Source: Octopus vulgaris (taxonomy: Eukaryota). Taken from it: a stretch of 64,000 nucleotides of DNA. Shown one piece after another: positions 4,890 to 25,400 of this stretch; position 1 is the stretch's first letter, and the number at the start of each line of letters is the position of its first letter. Under the pieces are notes generated by a model. It worked only from the letters and a program-made list of their open reading frames with translations. It ran no database searches and was not told where the DNA came from. The translations under genes and the position numbers were made by a program. The stretch covers positions 39,246,001 to 39,310,000 of the forward strand of contig OX597819.1 of NCBI GenBank assembly GCA_951406725.2. The letters are read 5' to 3'.

Positions 4890-5190
4890 CATCATCATTA
4901 AACATCCGCTTTCCAAGCTAGCATGGGTTGAATGGCTTGACAGGAGCTAGCAAGGGGCCGCACCAAATTCCATAGACAGTTTGGGCTTGGTTTCTACAGC
5001 TGGATGCCCTTCCTGACCCCAATCACTTTACAGAGTGTACTGCATGCTTTTTATGTGGCATCATCACCAGTGTTTTACGTGGCACCTTGGTTTTTAGGAC
5101 ATCAATTCTGTTGAAACAGGCAGGTCTTTTGGAGAACAGCAATGTGCCACATAACTTGGTTCTTTTGTCATCTCCTTTGGAAGGCTCAGC
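4890..5190 (-). mobile_element. SINE family C with RTE-like 3' tail
   Basis: Tail CATCATTAAACATCCGCTTTCCAAGCTAGCATGGGTTG. Copies at 49725-49890, 53650-53990, 54141-54350, 59010-59325, 59350-59475. Confidence 0.75.
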
Positions 5191-6169
5191 AAAACAATGT
5201 AAATAACTAAGCATTACATTTGCCAGAGGAATCCAAATGTTAAAAGGTTAGAAAAGGTGATAAGATAACTAATGATTGAATTGTAATATACTCAAATTTG
5301 TTTTATCATTCAGACAGTATGTCCAGTTTGAATGTAAACTATCAGGCCTGTTGCCATACAGAGGCATCCTCATACCATACTATAATGTAGTGTGGTTGTT
5401 TAGTCTCAGGCTAGCCACATTATCAAAGTAACTGAAAGCTTGTTACCTAGGTGACCTAATCAACAATAGTGGTGGATATCAAGACAGTTGTAGTTGCCAG
5501 GCTAAGGACAAAGGTAGGAAAAGAGAGCTGTTACTTTAGTTGACAGCAAACTTCTCTCATCAAGTGTTGGGCAGACTGTATGATGTGAAATATTTGCATA
5601 GAAGCACAACCTAAGTGTTATGCAAAGGCAAAAAAAATCAGACATTCACTGTTGTGTGTTAGAAAGACTGCAATGATACAAACATGTGTATGAAGAATGA
5701 TTAAGTAAAGTGTCAAATTATTGTTGAGTCAAGTGGATGGAGCATGCAATATAAGAAAACTGAAGAAGATATGCACAGGTGATGAGGAATGGCCTTGTGA
5801 TGCCAAACCTTATTCACTAACATAATGTTCCAGTTGTGACCAAGCCATCTTTTTTTCAGCAATTTACAACAGATTTATTTCTCGAAGCTTGCCAATTGAT
5901 ATCCCAAATGACTGCAAACTAGCTTTGGTCAGTAGAAGGACATTTTGAATAATTTTAATATACTTTAGTAAAATTTTGATATTTCATGTTATATACATTA
6001 TAGTAATTGCATAATTCTTCTACTTTGGGTGTTTTTCCTTTCCTAACACTTGTTCTTGTATTATAATACCTACTGGCAGAACTGTATTTCTCGTCACATT
6101 GGCTAGTTATCGGAACACAGGCACAACTGAATTCACTTCCTTGTTCTTTTTTTTATCCTCTCTTGGTCA

Positions 6170-6399
6170 TTAACCCTTTCGTTACTGTATTCATTTTGAG
6201 ATGCTCTGTGTTTCTTTCAATTAATTGTAAATATAACAAAGAATTTAGTAAAATAACTTAGTTACCATTAAGCTACTGTTAGGATCATAAATTGTGACTA
6301 AGGTTTGGTGGTATATTTTAATGAAAAACTTATGATAAAAAGACATTTATACTACAGAGCCAGAGCCGGTTTTGGCCGGGTTAGTATCAATAGGGTTAA
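6170..6399. mobile_element. piggyBac-like MITE
   Basis: TTAA-CCCTTTCGTTAC ... GTATCAATAGGG-TTAA. Confidence 0.75.
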
Positions 6400-8043
6400 T
6401 AGTATCACATTATCAACTGCAAAAAAGGACTAAATTCACTGATCGAATACATTTTTATAATAAAAAAACAAAAAAGAAGAAACAGCAGTAAAAATGTGTC
6501 ATGTATTACAGTTCACATACAATTAACAAATAATTGCAATTTATTCCTATTTACCTGGATCCTCTATTGTTTATATAATTACTGATATGAAAATTCAATG
6601 TCTTGTCAGCAAAGAAAAATAAACTTAGCAGAATCATGGCCAACAGATGTAGGAAGAATAGTCATTTGTTTAAGACGCTTGTTTTACAATGACAGTGGTT
6701 AAGAGTTCAACCCCGCTGCACAAAACCTGGAGTTGACTGAAGCGATGTGAGTGAAATTTGATAGACAGAAACTTATTAGCAGTCAACTGGAAGAACTGCT
6801 TCTGTTGGTAGGTGGTTCTTATATCTGTTGCCCAGTTTATCAACACCATATACCCAGTGCATTTCAGACGAGTCCACTTTTCAGACCAGGTCTCTACACC
6901 AAAGATAACATCTTCCCATTAGCCTTGGGGGCACTGAAAAGGCGTTATTGGTGTATTCTTACCCTTCTCTAAGCTATAAAACAATTATGAAACAGTTACT
7001 AAGTCACAAGAGAATTGTATTTTGTACAGCAATGACTTTGAAGTTTGGATAATCAGAAATGACAGATCTGTACATCACAATAATATACTGACATATCTTG
7101 ACACTTAAATGTCTTTAAAAAAATGAGGAACTTGATTTATATGTCCAAAGAATATTTCCAAGTTCCACTTTATTAAATCAGAATCCTCAATTATTAAGGT
7201 TAATAAAAACATATACTAAAGTACCTTTCAGTCAAAAATTGTTTTGTACTAGAAAAACTAATGTATTAGTGCATAAATATTTAGCTTTTCTTTTGTGACT
7301 GAATATTATACTTTACCATCATCATTCATTTTTTTTTTCGTGAAAACTGCGATTACTTTTAATGTTCGTAAAACAAAATGATACTAGCATTCTTTCATGT
7401 CATCATATACAAGTTTCTTAGCAAGCAAAAGAGGAAGCTAGCATCGGTAGGTATTTTTGCAAATTTGACCATTTGCATTTTGTGTCAACAACACCATACC
7501 ACACTGAACCATTAAGTAGAAATGGAACATACAGTGAATCAGATAGACTAAGGCAAAAAAAATAATATTAAGAAATAAAATATGGTGCATTGTTGATTGT
7601 TAAAACCCAGCACCTTTATTTCTAAGCTGTTTTACCTCAAGACTAAAAATTCCTTGTTTATTCCAAAATGAACCACCAGCTTGTTTAGTCTCTCATTATA
7701 ACTACACTAAACAAAATTAGGGATTCCAAGCTTCTGTATCTGACATAAACTTGGACAAAGAAGTTTCTGGAATGCTTACTATCCTGACAGTATTGCTATT
7801 TTCTTGTAAACATTTTGGTGTTCATTAAAACCATTTTTTTTTACCTTTTTTTGTATAATATTATAAATTTTTCACCTTATCACTATCCTTTTTAGAAGAG
7901 AAAAACTTAAAATATTTCAATTTTTGATTCTTGTCAAGAAACAAAAACTTTATCAACATTTCTAACTGTTCAATTAAGTTAGATTCTGCTGAATATTTAC
8001 CTGTAGCAGTTAATAAATATGGGTTTTATTTGTGTCTCTATGC

Positions 8044-10182
8044 TCAGTCACAATCAGACTCATCAGACAACAAGTTCACAACATCATTTAAGGCTCTCTG
8101 TTTTTCTTTACATATTATTTGACTAGTTACAAAAATGCATTTTGACTTTCCAGGATGCTTTACTTGAATATGTTTCAAAATTTGCTGTCTTTGACTATTT
8201 TTAGCCTCACAGTGCGGACAGTGTACATATTTCAGCAAGTTCAATTGCAAGTGCTGCAACAGCTCAGCACTACATTGAAATATGAGGCCACAGTATGCGC
8301 AGCAGAATTCTTTCTCCTCTGAGTGAACGGAATCATTGTGTTGTACAAACATTTTGATAAGATTTGTGTTAAAACCACAAAGGGAACAAGAATAAAGAAG
8401 AAACATGTCTGTAGAGACATGGGTAGATAAGTGTTTTAAAAAGCAGTCAATAACTGGAAATGCTTGGCCACAGTGTGCACAAGCATAATCTTTTTTCTGT
8501 TTACTATGTACACAACGTAAATGCTCTACAAATTCATCTTGCACAAGGCTAGAAAACAAACAATTTGAAAATCCACATATATAAAAGTTCCCACCATAGA
8601 TTTCATTTTTCTCTTTAGGATATAGATTTACATTAATATAGGTAGTCTTTGAATTAAGTGGTTCTGTTTTTATTTTAGTAACATTGTCAACATTTGAAGA
8701 AACTACTAAATTAGATTCCTCAGATGTGGACTCTTTATTTGATATCACATTTGAATGTGGAGATTCTACAATCAACTTCCCAGATTCAAGTTCAGTTACT
8801 CTGGATAAATTATTTTCAGCAGGTTCAAACAATGTACTATCATCAATCACATATGCATTAGAAGCTAATGTTTTCTTTACAGACTCAAAAGTACTAAGTG
8901 ATTGTTTAGAAAGTTTAGTTGACTCCAAATAGTCATCAGATAAAGGCTCCACTAAATCTAAGTCAATAACCTTTCCATCTGATATATTCCTCTTGACATC
9001 TCTAACAGACCAAACTGCTTCAACCTTAATGTTGTTGCCACAATCTGACTGGCCAGGCATTTCTTCTTTTTCACCTGGCTGGAATAATAGCTTTGGATAA
9101 ATCTCAGGTTTATGTCCAAGTAGTTTAGAAATTGTTTTATTGTTTAGGAGTAAACGGTTGTAGGAAGTAGTAGGAGTCTGTTTCAAATGTTTTAAAGCAT
9201 TTTTGTCTGAAGATTTTGGTTTCAAATTTGGTTTATGGACATTTAAGCTAATTACACTTTGGTTTGACACAGGAGGGTTCGTTTTAGGTGCATCAGTCAT
9301 GTGTAAATATGTGTAAATATTATTAGACAATGATACACTAGGAGAAACTACAGTTGGGCTAGTTGCTAGCGAATTAGACTGAACATTAGGTGGTGGGATA
9401 CTTGCAGGAGTATATATGTTTGAATAAGGTGTAGTTGCAATAAGATTCATTACACCAGGCTCCAAAGTTTGAGGGAATTTTGCATATGGCAGTATTTTGT
9501 ATTTGGCAGTATTAACTGGTGAAACTACAGGTAGAGTAGGTGTTACCAAATTAGGGCGAACAAAAAATCCTAAAATGTCTTGATTTTGGTTATTAACCTG
9601 AACATTGGTTGCAAGTGCATATGGAGCAAGAGAAGTGGTAGTTGCTGTTGGGACATTAGAAGCAAATGTTTTTGTAGCTGAGGATTCAGTCACAGGTGTG
9701 ACTGGAACTGAACTTACAGGTATTTGTTTGTTTGAAGATCCAATGAGAAGTGGCTGGTAACCAAAAGAATTGGTTGTGTTTGGAATATTAATAATAATAG
9801 GTGGCACAGCTTCAGAAACTTTGACAGAACTCTGTACTTCAGGTGCAGCACAAACGATTTGAAAATTCTGGTTTGAAGGTGTTTGTATAGTACCTAAATA
9901 GTTTTTTGGTAATATATTTGGCAATAAAACAGGAGATTTCTTCTGAAAAGTTGCATGTTTTTTCTGATTGGGTGAGTAAGACATTTGCTTTTGTGAAAGA
10001 TTAACAGGTCCAGCTGTTACAGGTGATAAAATTATAGGTGAATCACTTTTTGAAGATCCAGTAGAGGTTTTTTCCTTGTTATGCTTGGCCATCTCTTGAG
10101 ATGGAGTGTCAGTCGAGGCATCACTGATAATTAGAGAATTAGTTTGTCCTGGTAATCCATCTAATTTCAGTTGGCCGTCTAG
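8044..10182 (-). CDS. C2H2 zinc-finger protein, C-terminal part (in-frame continuation after the UGA; five C-terminal fingers)
   Basis: Open from 10182 to TGA 8046-8044 (then GCA TAG), same frame as the upstream ORF. S/T/P/N-rich middle. Fingers CGFSNC..H..H, CAHC..H..H, CSLC..H..H, CAYC..H (degenerate), CPHC..H..H. SUMO-type motifs IKVE, IKTE and SIM-like VIDL. Confidence 0.85.
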   Translation of the reverse strand, partial: LDGQLKLDGLPGQTNSLIISDASTDTPSQEMAKHNKEKTSTGSSKSDSPIILSPVTAGPVNLSQKQMSYSPNQKKHATFQKKSPVLLPNILPKNYLGTIQTPSNQNFQIVCAAPEVQSSVKVSEAVPPIIINIPNTTNSFGYQPLLIGSSNKQIPVSSVPVTPVTESSATKTFASNVPTATTTSLAPYALATNVQVNNQNQDILGFFVRPNLVTPTLPVVSPVNTAKYKILPYAKFPQTLEPGVMNLIATTPYSNIYTPASIPPPNVQSNSLATSPTVVSPSVSLSNNIYTYLHMTDAPKTNPPVSNQSVISLNVHKPNLKPKSSDKNALKHLKQTPTTSYNRLLLNNKTISKLLGHKPEIYPKLLFQPGEKEEMPGQSDCGNNIKVEAVWSVRDVKRNISDGKVIDLDLVEPLSDDYLESTKLSKQSLSTFESVKKTLASNAYVIDDSTLFEPAENNLSRVTELESGKLIVESPHSNVISNKESTSEESNLVVSSNVDNVTKIKTEPLNSKTTYINVNLYPKEKNEIYGGNFYICGFSNCLFSSLVQDEFVEHLRCVHSKQKKDYACAHCGQAFPVIDCFLKHLSTHVSTDMFLLYSCSLCGFNTNLIKMFVQHNDSVHSEEKEFCCAYCGLIFQCSAELLQHLQLNLLKYVHCPHCEAKNSQRQQILKHIQVKHPGKSKCIFVTSQIICKEKQRALNDVVNLLSDESDCD

Positions 10183-10917
10183 TCACTTGACTGGCGGCAC
10201 ACACTGTTCTCTGAAGAATTTTTCCTCAAAACTCTTTCTTGGCTGACATGCCTGAAGATTATCTTTCTTTGCAATAGGCATCTGATTCAAAGGTGTTTTC
10301 GCAGCAGACATAATTTTCACCATTGAAGATGACTTTACAGAAGATGGCTGAATGATTCCATGAGATGAGCAAGCAGTTTTGGTAGCAGTGATAGGTATAG
10401 GAGAACTTGGCTGTGGAGTAGACATTGAAGAGCTAATATTTTGTTGATCTACATGGGAATCAGTTACAGGAACTGATGTCACTTTTTCTGGGTTTACAAT
10501 ATCCTCAAAAGGAACAAGACTAAACATTAAATTCTTACTTGCATGTTTTACAGAATGGTGATTTTTAATAGAAGTGACTTTAGAAAAATAGCCACGACAA
10601 TGGAAACACCGTAACAAGAAAGTAGTTGTAGAAGGAGTTTTACCTTCCAGGTATGGCTCTTCAAGTTGAAGCAGGAGTTTCTTGTATTTCTTTTTTTCAT
10701 TATCTGGCTGATTAGTTGTAGCGATCCTTTTCTTGTTGAAAGAACGACACATTGAGATGTGTGCATCGAATAAGCCATGGTCATCTGTAGTGAATTTACA
10801 ACCAGAACACCGCTGTACACCATACTTTGACCAATCAACTGAACTCGGTGGTTTTGTTTTGGAATTATTTTCACCACTTTCTGCTGCCTGTGACTCATCT
10901 TTCTCATTCAGATTCAT
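10183..10917 (-). CDS. C2H2 zinc-finger protein, N-terminal part (244 aa if terminated at the first UGA)
   Basis: First in-frame ATG at 10917 (AAAATGA) after a strong acceptor (tttcttctctttccag|G, exon start 11105). Fingers CSGCKFTTDDHGLFDAHISMC and CFHCRGYFSKVTSIKNHHSVKH. Ends at TGA 10185-10183. Confidence 0.85.
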   Translation of the reverse strand: MNLNEKDESQAAESGENNSKTKPPSSVDWSKYGVQRCSGCKFTTDDHGLFDAHISMCRSFNKKRIATTNQPDNEKKKYKKLLLQLEEPYLEGKTPSTTTFLLRCFHCRGYFSKVTSIKNHHSVKHASKNLMFSLVPFEDIVNPEKVTSVPVTDSHVDQQNISSSMSTPQPSSPIPITATKTACSSHGIIQPSSVKSSSMVKIMSAAKTPLNQMPIAKKDNLQACQPRKSFEEKFFREQCVPPVK

Positions 10918-11334
10918 TTTTGTTTGTTTATTTTCTTTTACCCTTTTCCCCACCACTCTTTGCCTTCGTATCAGAAGTTTCTGTATATCTAGCACATTAG
11001 AAACTTTATCAAAACATTTGTCCACTTAGACTATTTCTAACATGTGATGAATCGACTGACGCCTTTTTTGTAAAAAAACACAAATCGGTTTCCAAATAGT
11101 GGTCCCTGGAAAGAGAAGAAATATAAAATATGAACTTTTAAAGCCAAACAAATTTGACAGAAATTTTTAAAATTAAATTATCAGTCATAGAAAACTATGC
11201 CAAACAATATTCATGAAGTGTATATATATTAAAAATATAGTTTAACGCCCCACCCCACACACACCACTACCACCAATATCGGAAATCTTGCTTATCTAAC
11301 CGGAAATCCCCTTCCGTACTGGTAGTCTCCTCTC

Positions 11335-14222
11335 TCATACCTGCAATCTCACCCGTGGCCCCCACTTCCCACTCTCTCTCTTGCCAGGGACTAACCTAAC
11401 CAGATTGCAACCCACCCATTTACTTAATCTAACATTGGCATATTTACATTCATATTTATGTTTTAAATTTATATCTGCAGCACCAGTAAAGCTTATGTTT
11501 ACAATGCTCATAACGCTTATACTTACAATGCCTATAACACTTTCATTTACAATGTTTCCTACTCTTACCCCCAATAGGGACAACAATTTTTTAACAATTT
11601 TAACATGTTTAAATTGTGATAAGTTAAAAACGAGAACAGCCTGTGTGACATGTCTACCAAATGATCGCGGAAACCTTCTTTTCAGGTACTGAATAATATC
11701 TCTCCTTCCCATGTTTCCTCCCACATCCCTTTCCCAGCTTTTAGAGTTGGCACTGTCAATGTAGGTCAAGTGAGATTGTAGAGATGCTTGAAAGGAGATG
11801 TGTTGATGTATGCTGCATACAAGAGGTAAGGTGGAGAGGAGCTTCAGCTAGGGTCCTCACAGGCAAGACACATAGGTATAAAATCTTCTGGGAAGGTAAC
11901 AGTAACAGAGTAGGTGAAGTGGGCATACTCCTAGCAGAGAAATGAGTGGATAGGGTCATAGAGGTAGTAGGGTGTGCGATAGAGTACTTAAGCTCAGGCT
12001 AGTCTTGCAGAATAGTATAGATACAATAATCTCTGCCTACACTCTACAAGTGGGCCTACCAAATGAACAGAAGAACCACTTTTATGATATTCTTCTGCCA
12101 GCTACCTCAAAGATGAGCGACAATGATCTCATCTTTGTGGCTGGAGACTTTAATGGACATGTTGAACGGCAACCTGGTGTCTTCCATGGTGTTCATGAAA
12201 TTGGTTCTCAAAACGAAGTTCTGTGATGCAAGTAACCTATTGATCTGCAACACCAACTTCAGACAGTGGGATGCATGGTTGCTCTTAAATACAAAGACCC
12301 TCCCTGGTGAAGAATGTAACCCCAGCATAGACTAGTTATTAATGACTTTAGACTCAAGGCCAGAAAGATGCCAAGAAGCAGACTAATCTGGAAAAGAAGG
12401 ATTTGGAAGGTTAAGAACTTTTCACATGGTAAGAGATTTAGGGACATCCTCTTGAGAAATTTGATGAGAGGGAAGAAAAGCTACATACTTGACATAGGGG
12501 GCAACTGAGAATCCCTGCATGACAGCTTGCTGTGTGCCATGGACCAAATCTGTGCCTGGTGCAAAGTTCCTTCCAGACCTAGGGTAATGTGGAGGTGGAA
12601 TAATATGGTAGACAGGGCCATTACAGCAAAGAAGCAGGCCTGGAAAGTCTGGAAGAATGTGGGTAGCAAGGAACTGTATCAGATAGCCAGAAAGGAAGTT
12701 AGGTGACAGGTATATATAGCCAAGGTAGAAGCAGAAAAGAAGAAGCTTGCCAATGTTCAGCGATGTGAGGACCAAAGAACTGAAGTATTTTGGATTGCAA
12801 GACAGTGTGTGAAAGAACATTTTGATGTCATACGAGAGAAATGTGTCTGCATGGATGATGGTACACTTGTGTTTAATGATTCTGCAAAGAAAGATGCTTG
12901 GGGATACCATTATGAAAGTCTGCTGAATGTGAAGAATGAATGGGAGGAGGAGAGCCTGTAAATGTTGACCCAGTTGAGGGACCAGCTACTTGCAGTGGCA
13001 GTACCCTGGCAGATTAAGCAATTATGGATATGAAGACAGGAATTACTGCAGAGATGCTTAAAATATCTGGTGGTGTGGGTTATGGCCTAGTTACCCATAC
13101 TGTAAATCAGGTAATTCACGAAGGAGTCATACCCAGTGACTGGTGTAGCAGTACTATAGTCAACTGCTATGAAGGTAAAGGTGATGCATTAGATAGAAAT
13201 AACTACAAGTGTATCAAATTGCTGGATCAGGTAATGAAAGTCACGAAGAGGGTCATAGCCCTACTAATTAGGGAGAGAGTTAGCCTAGATGATATGCAGT
13301 TTGCTTTTGTGCAAGGTAGAAGCACTACTGATGCTATATTTCTGGTAAGGCAACTGCAGGAGAAATACCTAGCCAAAAGCCTTTGACAGAGTCCCCCGAA
13401 CCCTTATCTGGTGGTCAATGTGGGAACTAGGTATAGATGAGTAGTTGGTAAGAGCTGTACAAGCCTTGTACAGAGATGCAATCAGTAAGGTACGGGTTGG
13501 CAACAAGTATAGTGAGGAATTCTGGGTAGAAGTAGGGGTTCACAAAGGATCAGTCCTCAGTCCCCTCTTATTCATCATAGTCCTCAAGGCAATAACAGGG
13601 GAATTCAAGAAAGGCTGCGCCTGGGAGTTCCTCTGTGCTGATGACCTTGCCCTAATAGCTGAACTAAAGATGAAGTTTTTGGTGTGGAAGCAAGGTCTAG
13701 AATTGAAAGGCCTTAGAGCCAATCTAACAAAAACCAAAGTACTAGTAAGTAAGAAAGCAGTCAAATCACAAACCATATCAAGTAGATGGCCCTGCTCAAT
13801 CTGTAGAAAAGGCATAGGTAGAAACTCCATAGGATGGACCCAGTGTAAGCTATCGACACATAAGAAGTGCAGCAATATCAAAGGGAGGTTAACTGAGAAG
13901 ATAGTTTTTGTGTGTGGCAGATGCACAGGGGCAATAAACACCAAAAGCATACAGAGAACAGATTTCATCACATGTCAAGGGGAGAAACTAGAAGTAGTTG
14001 ATAGCTTCGGCTACCTAGGTGACCAAGTCTGTAGTGGAGGTGGATGCTCAGAGAGCATAGCCGCTAGAATAAGAATAGCCTGGGTAAAGTTTAGAAAGCT
14101 CCTACCTCTGCTGGTAACAAAGAGCCTCTTGCTCAGAGTGAAAGTTAGACTGTATGATGCATGTGTGCAAACATCCATGCTACACAGCAGTGAAACATGG
14201 GCCATGAATGATGATGATGATG
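11335..14222 (+). mobile_element. RTE-clade LINE, degenerate (APE endonuclease, RT, PHD-like Cys motif)
   Basis: LRVGTVNVG near 11740, AGDFNGHV, QFAFVQGRSTTDAIF, HKGSVLSPLLF, LCADDL, LHSSETWAM, then (GAT)n. Many stops and frameshifts. 5' boundary approximate. Confidence 0.93.
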
Positions 14223-14778
14223 GTACATGAATTTAGTCTTAGAAGTGTTGGAATGGGTAAAGTAGGCATATTGTTGACAGAGGAATGGATTAAGTAACAG
14301 CAGCCAGTTACTTCTGTGTATGAATTGCAGTCAGAAGTGAAAAATGGACCATTTCTATGAGGTCCTTTTGCAAACCACCTAATAAATGACAGTAACCTCA
14401 TTATTATGGCTTTAATGAACATGTTGGACAACATGATGGCTACAAAGGTACACATGATGACTATGGATAGAGTACAGGAAAAAAAAGGGGGTGAAGGCTC
14501 TAGGAGTTTTTGTGATGCAAGTGACCTAACCTTCTGCAAACCAACCAGTGTACCCTATCACCTAACAATCAAGTGAAAAAGCAAACCAGAAACACTCCAT
14601 ACTTACAAGAAAACAAGATAGGTAACTGGCTCTGAATATTAATCCTTCTTTGGTAAAAAATATACTGCTCAACACAGACTGGTGGTTAGCAATCTCAGTA
14701 TAAGAGTGAGGTAAACTCAGGGATAAATGATAATCAGGGGAAGTTAAGAAATAAAAGTTGAAAGATAGCTTCAATTAA

Positions 14779-22460: not shown

Positions 22461-25400
22461 GCTCAATCTCTTTCGGTGCTGGTACATCGAACATGTCGTA
22501 AAACACATCCATTGGAATTTCCTTCCTTTTTTCTGTATGACTGATCTTTAATTGATTTAAATGTCGTTTATGCTCCCATCGTTGGTCTTTTATTAAATAT
22601 ATCGCGTTTCCAATTCTTTTAGTCACTACAACATCCTGTCAACTCTCTTTACCGTTCTTGTATATTTTGAAATGGACTTTGTCTCCGACATCAAAATGTT
22701 TAGTTGAATTTTTTTGTATTTTCTCTATACGTTTTTTCCTTTGGCAACAAGTTGTCGAAGATCGATTTAATCTTTCGCGTGAATATTAGCTTTGCAGGCG
22801 ACTTGCCTGAACTGGTTTTGGGATTGGGCGTTTTTCTGTACACACTTAAGAATTTAGTTAGCGCTTCATCATTTCCTAACTCGTTTCTTGCTTTTTTAAG
22901 CGCTCGCTTGAAAGTATCTACGAATCGTTCTGCTTGCCCATTTGACCTCGGGCGGCAGGTCGAGGTAAACATGTGCTTGACTGCAAGCATTTTGCAGAAT
23001 TTCTTGAATTCATATCCTCTTCTATTTTCCGATACTATGGTGTCCGGAACACCGTTTCGAGTAAAAAGTTCGTGAAGGAACTTTATTGTTGCCTTCGATG
23101 TAAGTTGACTGCACTCACATACTTTCGGCCACTTGGTAAAGCTATCAACAATGATCAAGTAGTACGCGCCTTTTCCTGGTCCAGGGTAGTTTATATGTAC
23201 CCTGGACCACGGACTATCCATCTCAGGCTACAATTGGTATTTCACCGGTGGTGCCTTGGTTTCTAGCGCACACCTTCTACAAGATTTTACCAAGTTTTCA
23301 ATGCCCCGGTCCATTGTCAGACAATACACGTAACTCCTCATCAAAGATTTCATTCTTGACATTCTCGAGTGTTCAGTATGAAATTCGAGTAATATCCGTT
23401 TCTGTAGTGCAGTTAGTACTACCACTCTTTGTGCGTACATTAATACATCGTCACAGTGTGAAAAATTATTCGCATTCGTGTTTCTCTTCTGTTTATTTTT
23501 CAAGGCTGCTTTCATTTTTATGATGTATTTGTACTCCGCTGATTTACTTTTTATATCTTGTACAGTCACTGGCAACTCCTGAATGACATTACACATAACA
23601 TCTTTAATTTCCTTTTCTGATTGTAATGCGGCTATAACCGTATCTTCTAGCTGTTCCGTATTCTTCGGAATTAGTGTAGATAAACAATCCACATGGCCAA
23701 TATTCTTCGAAGGAATGTACTCCATCTTAAAATTTTACCCCAGCGTTGTAGATGAATGGGTAGACAATCCTTTCTTCGATCCGAAAATTAATTGTAACAG
23801 TTGGTGGTCCGTCTGAAGCCGAAAACGTCCACTGTGAAATTTCTTCACGGCATAAACTATTGCTAGAGCTTCTTTCTCTATCTGACTGTAGTTTTTCTCT
23901 GCTGCAATCAAAGCACGTGAGGCGTGGACCACTGCCTTCATATTACCGTCTTTATATCTGTGTTGCAAAACTGCTCCTACGCCGTATTCAGAAGCTATAG
24001 CAATCTCCACTGCAGGATACAAATGAGCCACCGACAAATCCAAAATTTAAATTTTTTTATATCCTAAAACGCCTTTTGACAGTTATTTGACCAATTCAGT
24101 TTGGCGTCTTTCTTTAGCAAATCATTAAGTGGAGCTCTCAGTTCATATGTTTGGTATGTAATTTTGATAATAGTTCACTAGGCCAAGAAAAGCTTGGGTA
24201 ATGTTAGTTGGGTGAGACATATTTTTAATTGCGTCTGCCATCGATGTGTCAGGTCGTCTTCCATTTTCATCTATAATTTGTCCTAAATATCTAATTTTAG
24301 GCAAAAAGAATTAACATTTCTCCTCACTAAGTGTGAAATCGTAATCTCTTTTATCTTTTGAAAAACACACTTCACATGTTTGATATGCTGATCACGTGAT
24401 TCACTTTTAATTAATACATTATCGAGGCATGGAATTGCTAACTGACAGTCCACCAACATCACATGCATAACCTGTTGAAAAATTGCGGTGCGACTTTCAG
24501 ACCAAATGATAATCTATTATATTTGTATAGTCCTCTGTGCGTATTCACTGTTAGAAGCTTCAAGCATTCCTCTCTACTTTAATTTGTAGATACGCATCAG
24601 ACAGATCCAGTTTCGAAAATATTTTGCCACCATTTAATTTTGCAAAAATATCCCCCGGAATAGGCAATGGATAGTGGCACATTTTTTGACAGTCATTCAA
24701 GCCAGTAGAAAAATCGGCACAGGCCCTGATTTTGTTATTTATTTTTTAATACTCACCGATGGTGCTGCCCACTTAGAATAATTTACTTTTTGAATAATTC
24801 TCATTTTCTTCAGTCTGTCTAACTCTTCTTCTACCTGCTTTATCGCAGCAAATGGATCTTTCTATAGGGTTTGTATATAGGTACATTTTCCTTCATTTGA
24901 AAACAGGCCTCAGTCTTAGAACAGAGACCTAATTTATCCGACAACTCTTCAGGAAATAACTTTTTTAAAATTTTTTCTTCAATTCCGCTGCTGAGTTATT
25001 TTTCACTGGTGGGACAGCCATTTATTTTTTTTACAGAACAGACTTATGAGGAAGTCCCATAACACAAACAACTCCAACCAAAACGTACAGAACAGATTGG
25101 TTGCGTTTTTTACCACGAAAATGTTTGCTCTCCAAGTTTTTCCCTGAAATGTGATATCACTCTACATTTCGCCCACGAAGTGTAGTTTTTCTCCTGTCAC
25201 GCCTCGTGCAATTTTCGATGTTCTTCTTAACGTAGATTTCTCAATTCTTTTCTACGTGTCGGTATCAATAACCGAGATATCGCTACCAGTATCTAGTTGT
25301 AATTTAATATTCACTTTGTCTACATTTACATGTACCAATTTCCTCTTTTGGTGTCGCTTCTACTTTCCGTTGAGAAAACTTTAGAATTTTTTAATATTCG

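What the first reader, a model, noticed from the sequence alone, without database searches (positions are those of the whole stretch)
10108..10191. Stem-loop just 3' of the internal UGA: readthrough stimulator or editing substrate
Seen (mRNA sense): ACUGA-AAUUAGA (10171-10160) pairs with UCUAAUU-A-UCAGU (10135-10123), giving 12 bp with one bulge, starting 12 nt after the stop, with a 24-nt loop. It extends by GGC:GCC, and GUCAAGUGA spanning the stop could pair imperfectly with UCGACUGAC (10116-10108). Established: 3' structures a short spacer after the stop stimulate readthrough (alphavirus UGA-C, headcase), and coleoids recode heavily by A-to-I editing, which would turn UGA into a Trp codon. 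Inference: readthrough is more likely than editing because ADAR disfavours a 5' G neighbour. Selenocysteine would need a SECIS, which I did not find.
Basis: partly seen in the sequence, partly recalled or inferred. Interest (0 to 1): 0.72.

Follow-up and report, generated by a model that had tools for sequence, protein, structure and literature searches.

The report
Octopus zinc-finger gene needing stop readthrough
An octopus zinc-finger gene has a stop codon in the middle of its coding sequence, followed by a well-known leaky-stop signal and an RNA hairpin, so the long protein is probably made only when ribosomes read through the stop, a trick familiar from viruses and flies but barely recorded in molluscs.

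Summary
The hairpin is there: 10171-10160 pairs with 10135-10123 (12 bp, one bulge), starting at +12 after an in-frame UGA (10185-10183). The '24-nt loop' folds 5 more pairs; the stop-spanning pairing is not predicted (p<=0.01). Stability is only modestly above chance (34 of 933 exon windows as stable). The UGA splits one exon into a 244-aa ORF (2 zinc fingers) and an in-frame 712-aa ORF (4-5 fingers). Contigs of 4 of 4 runs laid keep the UGA unedited and unspliced; three end at the exon edge like spliced RNA. ORF1 ends in the same column in an unnamed relative and in Argonauta; ORF2 fingers are 95-97% conserved; an unnamed 2053-aa homologue carries both finger sets in one open frame. Best reading: programmed UGA readthrough (0.72), hairpin probably auxiliary (about 0.45, no orthologous DNA for covariation). 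Rivals: ORF2 from its own AUG, a minor 63-nt in-frame intron, neural editing, selenocysteine. New member of a known kind.

The parts
11105..11120 (-). Pyrimidine tract and AG splice acceptor; the large exon starts at 11105
   Evidence: Sequence; contigs of X11, X12 and X18 stop matching exactly at 11105 and continue with 37, 55 and 8 other letters, no depth in 11126-11300 in 4 of 4 runs
10186..10917 (-). ORF1, 244 codons from ATG 10917, two zinc fingers then a Ser/Thr/Pro-rich stretch
   Evidence: held as a 244-aa protein record (P0006) with relatives P0007 and P0008 ending in the same column
10543..10809 (-). Two N-terminal fingers: C-x2-C-x12-H-x3-C (aa 37-57) and C-x2-C-x12-H-x4-H (aa 104-125)
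   Evidence: motif scan; 39/40 and 70/77 identical in P0007, 34/40 and 57/77 in Argonauta for aa 27-66 and 67-143
10183..10185 (-). In-frame internal TGA (codon 245), the proposed readthrough codon
   Evidence: unchanged in the long contigs of 4 of 4 runs
10179..10182 (-). CUAG directly after the stop (UGA-CUAG leaky-stop motif)
   Evidence: 9 of 2491 TGA in the window, both strands, this one included; motif proven in PMC4132726 and PMC5868278
10154..10171 (-). 5' arm of the downstream hairpin (outer 12 bp 10171-10160, inner 5 bp 10158-10154)
   Evidence: prediction only
10123..10140 (-). 3' arm of the downstream hairpin; also overlaps a candidate 3' splice site ending at 10124
10117..10176 (-). 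Full hairpin with the GGC:GCC basal extension (starts +7), predicted when upstream RNA is unpaired
   Evidence: -18.6 kcal/mol with upstream held open to +6, -13.3 with it held open to +9 or +11
10168..10206 (-). Competing hairpin that buries the stop codon in naked RNA (A10183 paired to U10190)
   Evidence: p 0.86-1.0 in three unconstrained contexts
10093..10182 (-). 30-codon stop-free linker between the UGA and the first in-frame AUG
   Evidence: 0, 4 and 3 stops in the three frames; 168 of 1554 3'UTR windows of this size are stop-free; codon-usage score inconclusive
10090..10092 (-). First in-frame AUG of ORF2 (G at -3 and +4), start of the public 682-691 aa models
10124..10186 (-). Rival feature: 63-nt GT..AG stretch whose removal would delete the stop and keep the frame
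   Evidence: one of 19 such pairs of 40-200 nt; retained in the contigs of 4 of 4 runs
8044..10182 (-). ORF2 / readthrough extension, 712 codons, long low-complexity region and the C-terminal finger cluster
   Evidence: 0, 46 and 77 stops in the three frames
8155..8577 (-). C-terminal zinc-finger cluster (aa 781-921): four matched fingers plus one degenerate finger seen by eye
   Evidence: 177/182 and 173/182 identical in P0003 and P0004 for ORF2 aa 531-712; 46% to P0012 aa 1149-1330
6354..8043 (-). 3' UTR, at least 1.7 kb, no SECIS found
   Evidence: X12 contig runs 6354-11105; Rfam and pattern scans

Best explanation
Programmed, in-frame stop-codon readthrough of the UGA-CUA(G) plus 3' stem type. 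One large exon is translated from AUG 10917. Most ribosomes stop at the UGA and release a 244-aa protein with two zinc fingers. The CUAG after the stop makes termination inefficient, so in a fraction of events a near-cognate tRNA (Trp, Cys or Arg; recalled, not tested) is accepted and the ribosome continues for 712 codons, giving a 957-aa protein with the N-terminal finger pair and the C-terminal finger cluster, the same layout as the uninterrupted homologue P0012. The hairpin at +7 to +12 sits where the mRNA leaves the entry channel when the stop is in the A site and probably raises or regulates the readthrough rate. SHOWN: anatomy, frame, motif, retention of the stop in consensus transcript-like contigs, same ORF1 end in two relatives, conservation of ORF2, existence of an uninterrupted homologue. 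INFERRED: that readthrough happens, the residue inserted, the rate, and any role of the hairpin (about 0.45 on its own).
For: UGA-CUAG at the junction, 9 of 2491 TGA in the window; all human UGA_CUAG contexts tested read through at 1.3-6.7% and the best at 6-17% or more (PMC5868278, PMC4132726). ORF1 and ORF2 share a frame with a stop-free 30-codon linker. Long contigs of 4 of 4 runs from 4 studies cross the stop with every mismatch accounted for elsewhere (4/4, 13/13, 1/1, 10/10) and no 63-nt gap. ORF1 ends in the same column in P0007 (85%) and Argonauta hians P0008 (61%); the Argonauta-Octopus split has a fossil lower bound of about 29 Ma (PMC12682272). ORF2 fingers 177/182 and 173/182 identical in two relatives, so it is no dead remnant. 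P0012 holds both finger sets in one 2053-aa frame (41% and 46% identity). Twenty AUGs from 10917 to 10121 precede the ORF2 AUG, which argues against leaky scanning. Stem geometry matches Sindbis (11 bp, 3' bulge, 12-nt spacer) and VEEV (11-12 bp, 8-9-nt spacer) (PMC3159437); 11-12 nt after the A-site codon lie in the entry channel (PMC13517186).
Against: No protein, peptide or ribosome-profiling evidence. No orthologous DNA: the identity of the stop, the CUAG, the linker frame and the stem in relatives are all unseen (searches found none; all 20 holders share 96-99% of words). No Argonauta ORF2 protein came up (length limit 526-1675 aa) and no O. bimaculoides ORF1 protein. The ORF2 AUG has a strong context and begins all three related ORF2 models. 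The linker's codon-usage score (2.3) lies between coding windows (7.7 +/- 3.0, circular) and UTR windows (0.5 +/- 3.1). The stem is only in the top 4-10% of exon windows and weak against synonymous resampling at two of three lengths. Contigs drop minor forms, and the tissues are unknown. P0012 is unnamed; it may be a paralogue.
Confidence: 0.72

Rival explanations
1. Gene fission: the UGA is a true terminator, and ORF2 is made separately from AUG 10092, by reinitiation, an internal promoter, or an alternative acceptor at 10124 that skips ORF1. The hairpin would be incidental or would mask that acceptor.
For: AUG 10092 has G at -3 and +4 and starts the RefSeq models of O. sinensis and O. bimaculoides and the unnamed P0004; a pyrimidine-AG candidate ends at 10124; linker coding score inconclusive.
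Against: Long contigs of 4 of 4 runs run unbroken from ORF1 into ORF2; 20 AUGs lie upstream, two of them out of frame between the stop and 10092, one right at the candidate acceptor; does not explain CUAG or the in-frame, stop-free linker. Of the loose-end table 193 rows were not shown, so a minor acceptor there is not excluded.
Confidence: 0.13
2. A minor or tissue-regulated 63-nt in-frame intron (10186-10124) removes the stop and gives a 936-aa protein; the hairpin lies inside it and could govern use of its 3' splice site.
For: GT at 10186, AG at 10124, length a multiple of three, branch-like sequence before the AG; the best-looking of the candidate pairs by eye.
Against: No joint listed and no such gap in the long contigs of 4 of 4 runs; 19 in-frame GT..AG pairs of 40-200 nt could do the same, so one is unremarkable; the donor lacks G at both -1 and +5 (consensus recalled); public models did not use it.
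Confidence: 0.06
3. A-to-I editing of A10183 in neural tissue turns UGA into a Trp codon; the relevant duplex would be the competing hairpin that buries the stop rather than the downstream stem.
For: Coleoids recode heavily in neural tissue and much less elsewhere (PMC4384741); stop-loss editing (UAG to UGG) is allowed for in coleoid pipelines (PMC8382921); A10183 is paired in the naked-RNA fold.
Against: No change at 10183 in the consensus contigs of 4 of 4 runs; UGAC was among the most poorly edited stop contexts for the human ADAR2 domain (PMC5137428); the downstream stem does not contain the stop. Tissues unknown; contigs hide minor editing.
Confidence: 0.05
4. Selenocysteine insertion, with the hairpin acting as a SEPN1-type redefinition element.
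For: UGA with a 3'-adjacent stem occurs in SEPN1 (PMC3159437 Discussion).
Against: No SECIS family among the 3 weak Rfam matches at E<=10 in 5000-12000; my pattern scan of 8043-6350 gave 0 hits at 8 of 9 pairs and one weak hit (-5.6 kcal/mol) at 7 of 9, with no positive control; the codon lies in a low-complexity linker, and P0012 and P0013 have no Cys in that column of an unreliable alignment (a Cys lies three columns on).
Confidence: 0.02
5. Recent nonsense mutation, assembly error or decaying pseudogene.
For: A single in-frame stop in an otherwise open 957-codon frame.
Against: Same TGA in 4 of 4 runs; same ORF1 end in two relatives; ORF2 intact and conserved in three other records.
Confidence: 0.02

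Closest known systems
Type II readthrough cassette, UGA-CUA/CGG plus 3' stem-loop (alphavirus nsP3/nsP4: Sindbis, VEEV; Firth et al. 2011, PMC3159437)
   Same: UGA followed by CUA; predicted stem of about 12 bp with one asymmetric bulge after a 6-11-nt spacer; long in-frame extension.
   Different: Cellular mollusc gene; compact hairpin (no 100-150-nt loop); no covariation or reporter evidence here.
Vertebrate UGA_CUAG genes OPRL1, OPRK1, AQP4, MAPK10, MDH1, VDR (PMC4132726, PMC5868278)
   Same: Identical seven-base context; VDR is also a transcription factor.
   Different: Their extensions are short (13 aa for MAPK10, 67 aa for VDR) and need no structure; here the extension is 712 aa, three times ORF1, and holds most of the fingers.
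Drosophila kelch, headcase and vvl/dfr readthrough (10.1101/2020.06.22.165522; PMC8417969)
   Same: Internal stop with predicted 3' stem-loop (kelch, headcase); readthrough isoform of a transcription factor with a disordered extension (vvl/dfr); tissue regulation is a plausible parallel.
   Different: Abundant readthrough was judged a Pancrustacea trait (PMC5100048); this is a coleoid mollusc, and a homologue reads through the same region with no stop at all.
Aplysia californica NADP-isocitrate dehydrogenase TGA-CTA with cryptic PTS1 (PMC4207609, Fig. S3 text)
   Same: Predicted UGA-CUA readthrough in a mollusc.
   Different: Short peroxisome tag (16 residues plus SKL) at the normal C-terminus; here an internal stop gating folded domains.
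Unnamed multi-finger protein P0012 (2053 aa) and P0011/P0013
   Same: Same N-terminal finger pair (41%) and C-terminal cluster (46%) in the same order.
   Different: No internal stop; has an extra central finger and about 700 more C-terminal residues; taxon and orthology unknown.

Membership tests
Type II (UGA-CUA/CGG + 3' structure) programmed readthrough | UGA stop in frame between two coding frames | tested here: met
   244 codons, TGA, 712 codons; both halves have conserved homologues
Type II (UGA-CUA/CGG + 3' structure) programmed readthrough | CUA or CGG directly 3' of the UGA | tested here: met
   CUAG at 10182-10179
Type II (UGA-CUA/CGG + 3' structure) programmed readthrough | Stem of about 10-12 bp or more starting 7-12 nt after the stop | tested here: met
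   predicted only: 12 + 5 bp from +12, basal extension from +7
Type II (UGA-CUA/CGG + 3' structure) programmed readthrough | Stop codon present in the mature mRNA (not spliced out, not edited) | tested here: met
   consensus contigs of 4 of 4 runs laid (of 24 listed); minor forms invisible, RNA label is the tool's guess but three contigs end at the exon edge
Type II (UGA-CUA/CGG + 3' structure) programmed readthrough | Position of the stop conserved across species | tested here: met
   ORF1 ends in the same alignment column in 2 of 2 close relatives found; these are predicted protein ends
Type II (UGA-CUA/CGG + 3' structure) programmed readthrough | Stop identity, 3' motif and stem conserved, with covariation or synonymous constraint | not testable with these tools
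   no orthologous DNA obtained
Type II (UGA-CUA/CGG + 3' structure) programmed readthrough | Readthrough product or reporter activity shown, dependent on the stem | not testable with these tools
   needs reporter, profiling or proteomics
Eukaryotic selenoprotein | SECIS element in the 3' UTR | tested here: not met
   Rfam and own pattern scan without positive control; SECISearch3 not available
Eukaryotic selenoprotein | UGA aligns to Cys in homologues | tested here: inconclusive
   aligned to Ser/Pro-rich region, Cys three columns away, alignment unreliable there
Stop-loss A-to-I recoding site | A>G at the stop in RNA versus DNA | tested here: not met
   0 of 4 runs at consensus level; tissues unknown, minor editing invisible
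Retained in-frame intron (exitron) | GT-AG ends, length divisible by three, no stop left after removal | tested here: met
   10186-10124, 63 nt; one of 19 such pairs
Retained in-frame intron (exitron) | Spliced junction seen in RNA | tested here: not met
   no joint in 4 of 4 runs; contigs drop minor forms

The most novel reading that the evidence does not exclude
A zinc-finger gene that was once one continuous frame acquired a nonsense codon in the octopod lineage and domesticated it as a regulated switch, kept for at least about 29 million years: UGA-CUAG plus a two-state RNA element (a hairpin that buries the stop in free mRNA and a downstream stem that zips up once the ribosome opens it) sets the ratio of a short two-finger protein to the full six-to-seven-finger protein, possibly high in neurons as for Drosophila kelch. 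Readthrough would here have arisen by splitting an old gene rather than by extending into a 3' UTR, and would show that coleoids recode by readthrough as well as by editing, in genes that annotation cuts in two.
Probability: 0.3. Interest if true: 0.8.

Novelty: new member of a known kind. Interest (0 to 1): 0.62.

Why it matters
Functional readthrough is well documented in viruses, insects and a few vertebrate genes; the only mollusc case I met is a predicted short peroxisome tag in Aplysia. Here the bypassed stop would gate three quarters of a conserved zinc-finger protein in an octopus. Public annotations give only the second half or two separate proteins, so the real product is missing from proteomes, and other coleoid genes may be cut the same way. 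It gives a simple, testable cassette (UGA-CUAG plus hairpin, about 90 nt) for asking whether cephalopod neurons regulate readthrough alongside RNA editing, and a possible case of readthrough born from a nonsense mutation in an old gene.

Tried and rejected
No whole genome is held for this window. Searches for orthologous DNA found nothing: metagenome contigs twice (251 and 312 pattern matches, 0 confirmed), viral contigs (133, 0), prokaryote genomes (19, 0). The run search listed no holder on record as RNA (labels are guesses) and no diverged relative. A search for longer proteins with the N-terminal fingers gave 0 of 42 candidates and missed even P0011, so it is uninformative. Pfam gave only sub-threshold zinc-finger hits; the ESM Atlas gave generic C2H2 clusters, no family name. 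Rfam gave three chance-level matches. The codon-usage test of the linker was inconclusive. One search was translated in the wrong frame and is not used. Earlier-finding look-ups by place and sequence returned nothing. Ten literature searches listed no title or abstract start naming this gene or a cephalopod readthrough case; most hits were seen as listings only, the library lacks most subscription papers, and Jungreis et al. 2011 was not held. The supplement of PMC8382921 was listed but not read; coleoid editing-site tables there or elsewhere could bear on the editing rival.
Full report
Setting. The finding lies on the minus strand inside one large exon. A pyrimidine tract and AG end at 11106, an ATG at 10917 opens 244 codons, a TGA at 10185-10183 interrupts, and the same frame stays open for 712 more codons to a TGA at 8046-8044. 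Read through, this is a 957-aa protein with two zinc fingers before the stop and four matched fingers plus one degenerate finger at the far end (the fifth by eye). ORF2 from its first Met differs at 3 positions from Octopus sinensis LOC115212909 and is 88% identical to O. bimaculoides LOC106867237, so the window is from an Octopus; the public models begin at the Met 30 codons after the stop.

The observation. The stem is real: 12 pairs with one bulge between 10171-10160 and 10135-10123, first paired base +12. The supposed 24-nt loop forms 5 more pairs. The GGC:GCC extension (from +7) forms only when the RNA up to the stop is held open (p 0.91-0.99 against 0.00-0.16), and the proposed stop-spanning helix with 10116-10108 has p of at most 0.01; in naked RNA the stop is instead buried in a local hairpin, 10206-10189 with 10184-10168. 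Against dinucleotide shuffles z is -2.4 to -3.5; against synonymous resampling 114, 20 and 73 of 1000 controls fold as well at 63, 75 and 90 nt. Within the exon 34 of 933 windows of 75 nt are as stable, 78 of 938 at 60 nt, 176 of 908 at 150 nt. The hairpin is thus notable for where it stands more than for its energy.

The stronger signal. The stop reads UGA-CUAG; only 9 of 2491 TGA triplets in the window do. This is the motif shown by mutagenesis to drive readthrough in OPRL1, OPRK1, AQP4 and MAPK10, where 12 nt after the stop sufficed (PMC4132726, passages); all 17 further human contexts tested gave 1.3-6.7% (PMC5868278, passages). In alphaviruses UGA-CUA or UGA-CGG is joined by an 11-12-bp stem after an 8-12-nt spacer, which raises readthrough 3- to 14-fold (PMC3159437, passages and Discussion); 11-12 nt after the A-site codon fill the entry channel (PMC13517186, passages).

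Is the stop in the mRNA? I laid 4 of the 24 runs listed, from four studies; all are contigs and their RNA label is the tool's guess. Three long contigs stop matching exactly at 11105 and go on with 37, 55 and 8 other letters, and none of the four covers 11126-11300, as expected of spliced RNA; the fourth begins at 11051. All four cross the stop. Their mismatches are all accounted for by listed places elsewhere (4 of 4, 13 of 13, 1 of 1, 10 of 10), none at 10183-10185, and their lengths leave no room for a 63-nt gap. So the main transcript form keeps an unedited, unspliced UGA. Contigs drop minor forms, tissues are unknown, and 193 loose-end rows were not shown.

Relatives. ORF1 ends in the same alignment column in an unnamed relative (P0007, 85%) and in Argonauta hians (P0008, 61%); the Argonauta-Octopus split has a fossil lower bound of about 29 Ma (PMC12682272, passages). 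The last 29 residues before the stop are more conserved than the linker before them (27/29 against 50/72, p 0.01; 16/29 against 26/72, p 0.12; blocks chosen after looking). ORF2 is intact in three other records, its finger region 177/182 and 173/182 identical in the two diverged ones; P0007 and P0004 both list a longest contig of 5047 bases, probably the same one. A profile search of 1.84 billion representatives returned 3 proteins: the window's own ORF1, P0011 and P0012. P0012 (2053 aa, unnamed) has the N-terminal fingers (41%) and the C-terminal cluster (46%) in one open frame, and P0013 is likewise open across the region. The two halves therefore belong to one protein in a homologue; its taxon, its orthology and the direction of change are not known. 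Against my reading: no Argonauta ORF2 and no O. bimaculoides ORF1 protein came up, and no orthologous DNA could be had, so the stop's identity, the CUAG, the linker frame and the stem are unseen outside this species group.

Mechanism. Most likely (0.72) most ribosomes stop and release a 244-aa two-finger protein, while a fraction insert an amino acid at the UGA and make the 957-aa form; CUAG is the primary signal and the hairpin a probable amplifier or regulator (about 0.45). Rivals: (a) ORF2 made from its own strong-context AUG at 10092 (0.13): 20 AUGs precede it, two out of frame between stop and AUG, but the linker's codon score is inconclusive; (b) a 63-nt in-frame GT-AG intron over the stop (0.06): one of 19 possible pairs, not seen in contigs; (c) neural A-to-I editing (0.05): editing is much lower outside the nervous system (PMC4384741, passages), coleoid pipelines allow for UAG stop-loss (PMC8382921, passages), but UGAC is poorly edited by the human ADAR2 domain (PMC5137428, passages); (d) selenocysteine (0.02): no SECIS by Rfam or by my uncontrolled pattern scan; (e) error or pseudogene (0.02).

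Comparison. It works like a Type II readthrough cassette and meets every defining feature I could test; conservation of the RNA element and a readthrough product are untested, so it is a strong candidate, not a proven member. Cellular parallels are Drosophila kelch and headcase (10.1101/2020.06.22.165522, passages) and vvl/dfr (PMC8417969, abstract). Abundant readthrough was judged limited to Pancrustacea (PMC5100048, passages; no mollusc term found in its main text); that paper's own criteria exclude splicing and downstream-AUG cases by the coding score between stop and AUG, the very test I could not run. A predicted mollusc case exists: Aplysia IDH with TGA-CTA and a peroxisome tag (PMC4207609, passages and one supplement row), to which an earlier AI note pointed me. 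Ten searches listed nothing on this gene or on cephalopod readthrough; most were seen as listings only, and unread supplements such as that of PMC8382921 may bear on editing.

Verdict. Observation partly confirmed (core stem yes, loop and stop-spanning helix no). Interpretation partly supported: readthrough is the best reading, for reasons mostly outside the hairpin. New member of a known kind, unusual for its host, for an extension three times the length of ORF1, and for a homologue without the stop. Interest 0.62.

Noticed in passing
window 10168-10206 (-): A competing hairpin buries the UGA in naked RNA and uses the same bases as the basal part of the downstream stem; the two folds exclude each other.
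   Followed up: partly
window 10186-10272 (-): The last 29 residues of ORF1 are more conserved than the linker before them (27/29 vs 50/72; 16/29 vs 26/72): a C-terminal motif of the short form or an upstream RNA element.
   Followed up: partly
window 9331, 7856, 10890: All four runs differ from the window at these places; 9331 (synonymous) and 7856 (3' UTR) are A>G in mRNA sense, so SNPs, assembly errors or editing; 10890 changes codon 10.
   Followed up: no
window 11043, 11017, 10997 (-): Three AUGs in the 5' part of the exon upstream of the main ATG (short upstream ORFs).
   Followed up: no
window 6168-6400: A repeat matched by hundreds of contigs at very high depth in all four runs, at the end of the 3' UTR.
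   Followed up: no
window 13445-14230 (+) and 22700-23734 (-): A LINE-type reverse-transcriptase fragment and a retroelement integrase fragment upstream of the exon.
   Followed up: no
P0012 aa 926-968 and 1330-2053: The uninterrupted homologue has an extra central finger and about 700 more C-terminal residues with two fingers that the octopus frame lacks.
   Followed up: no
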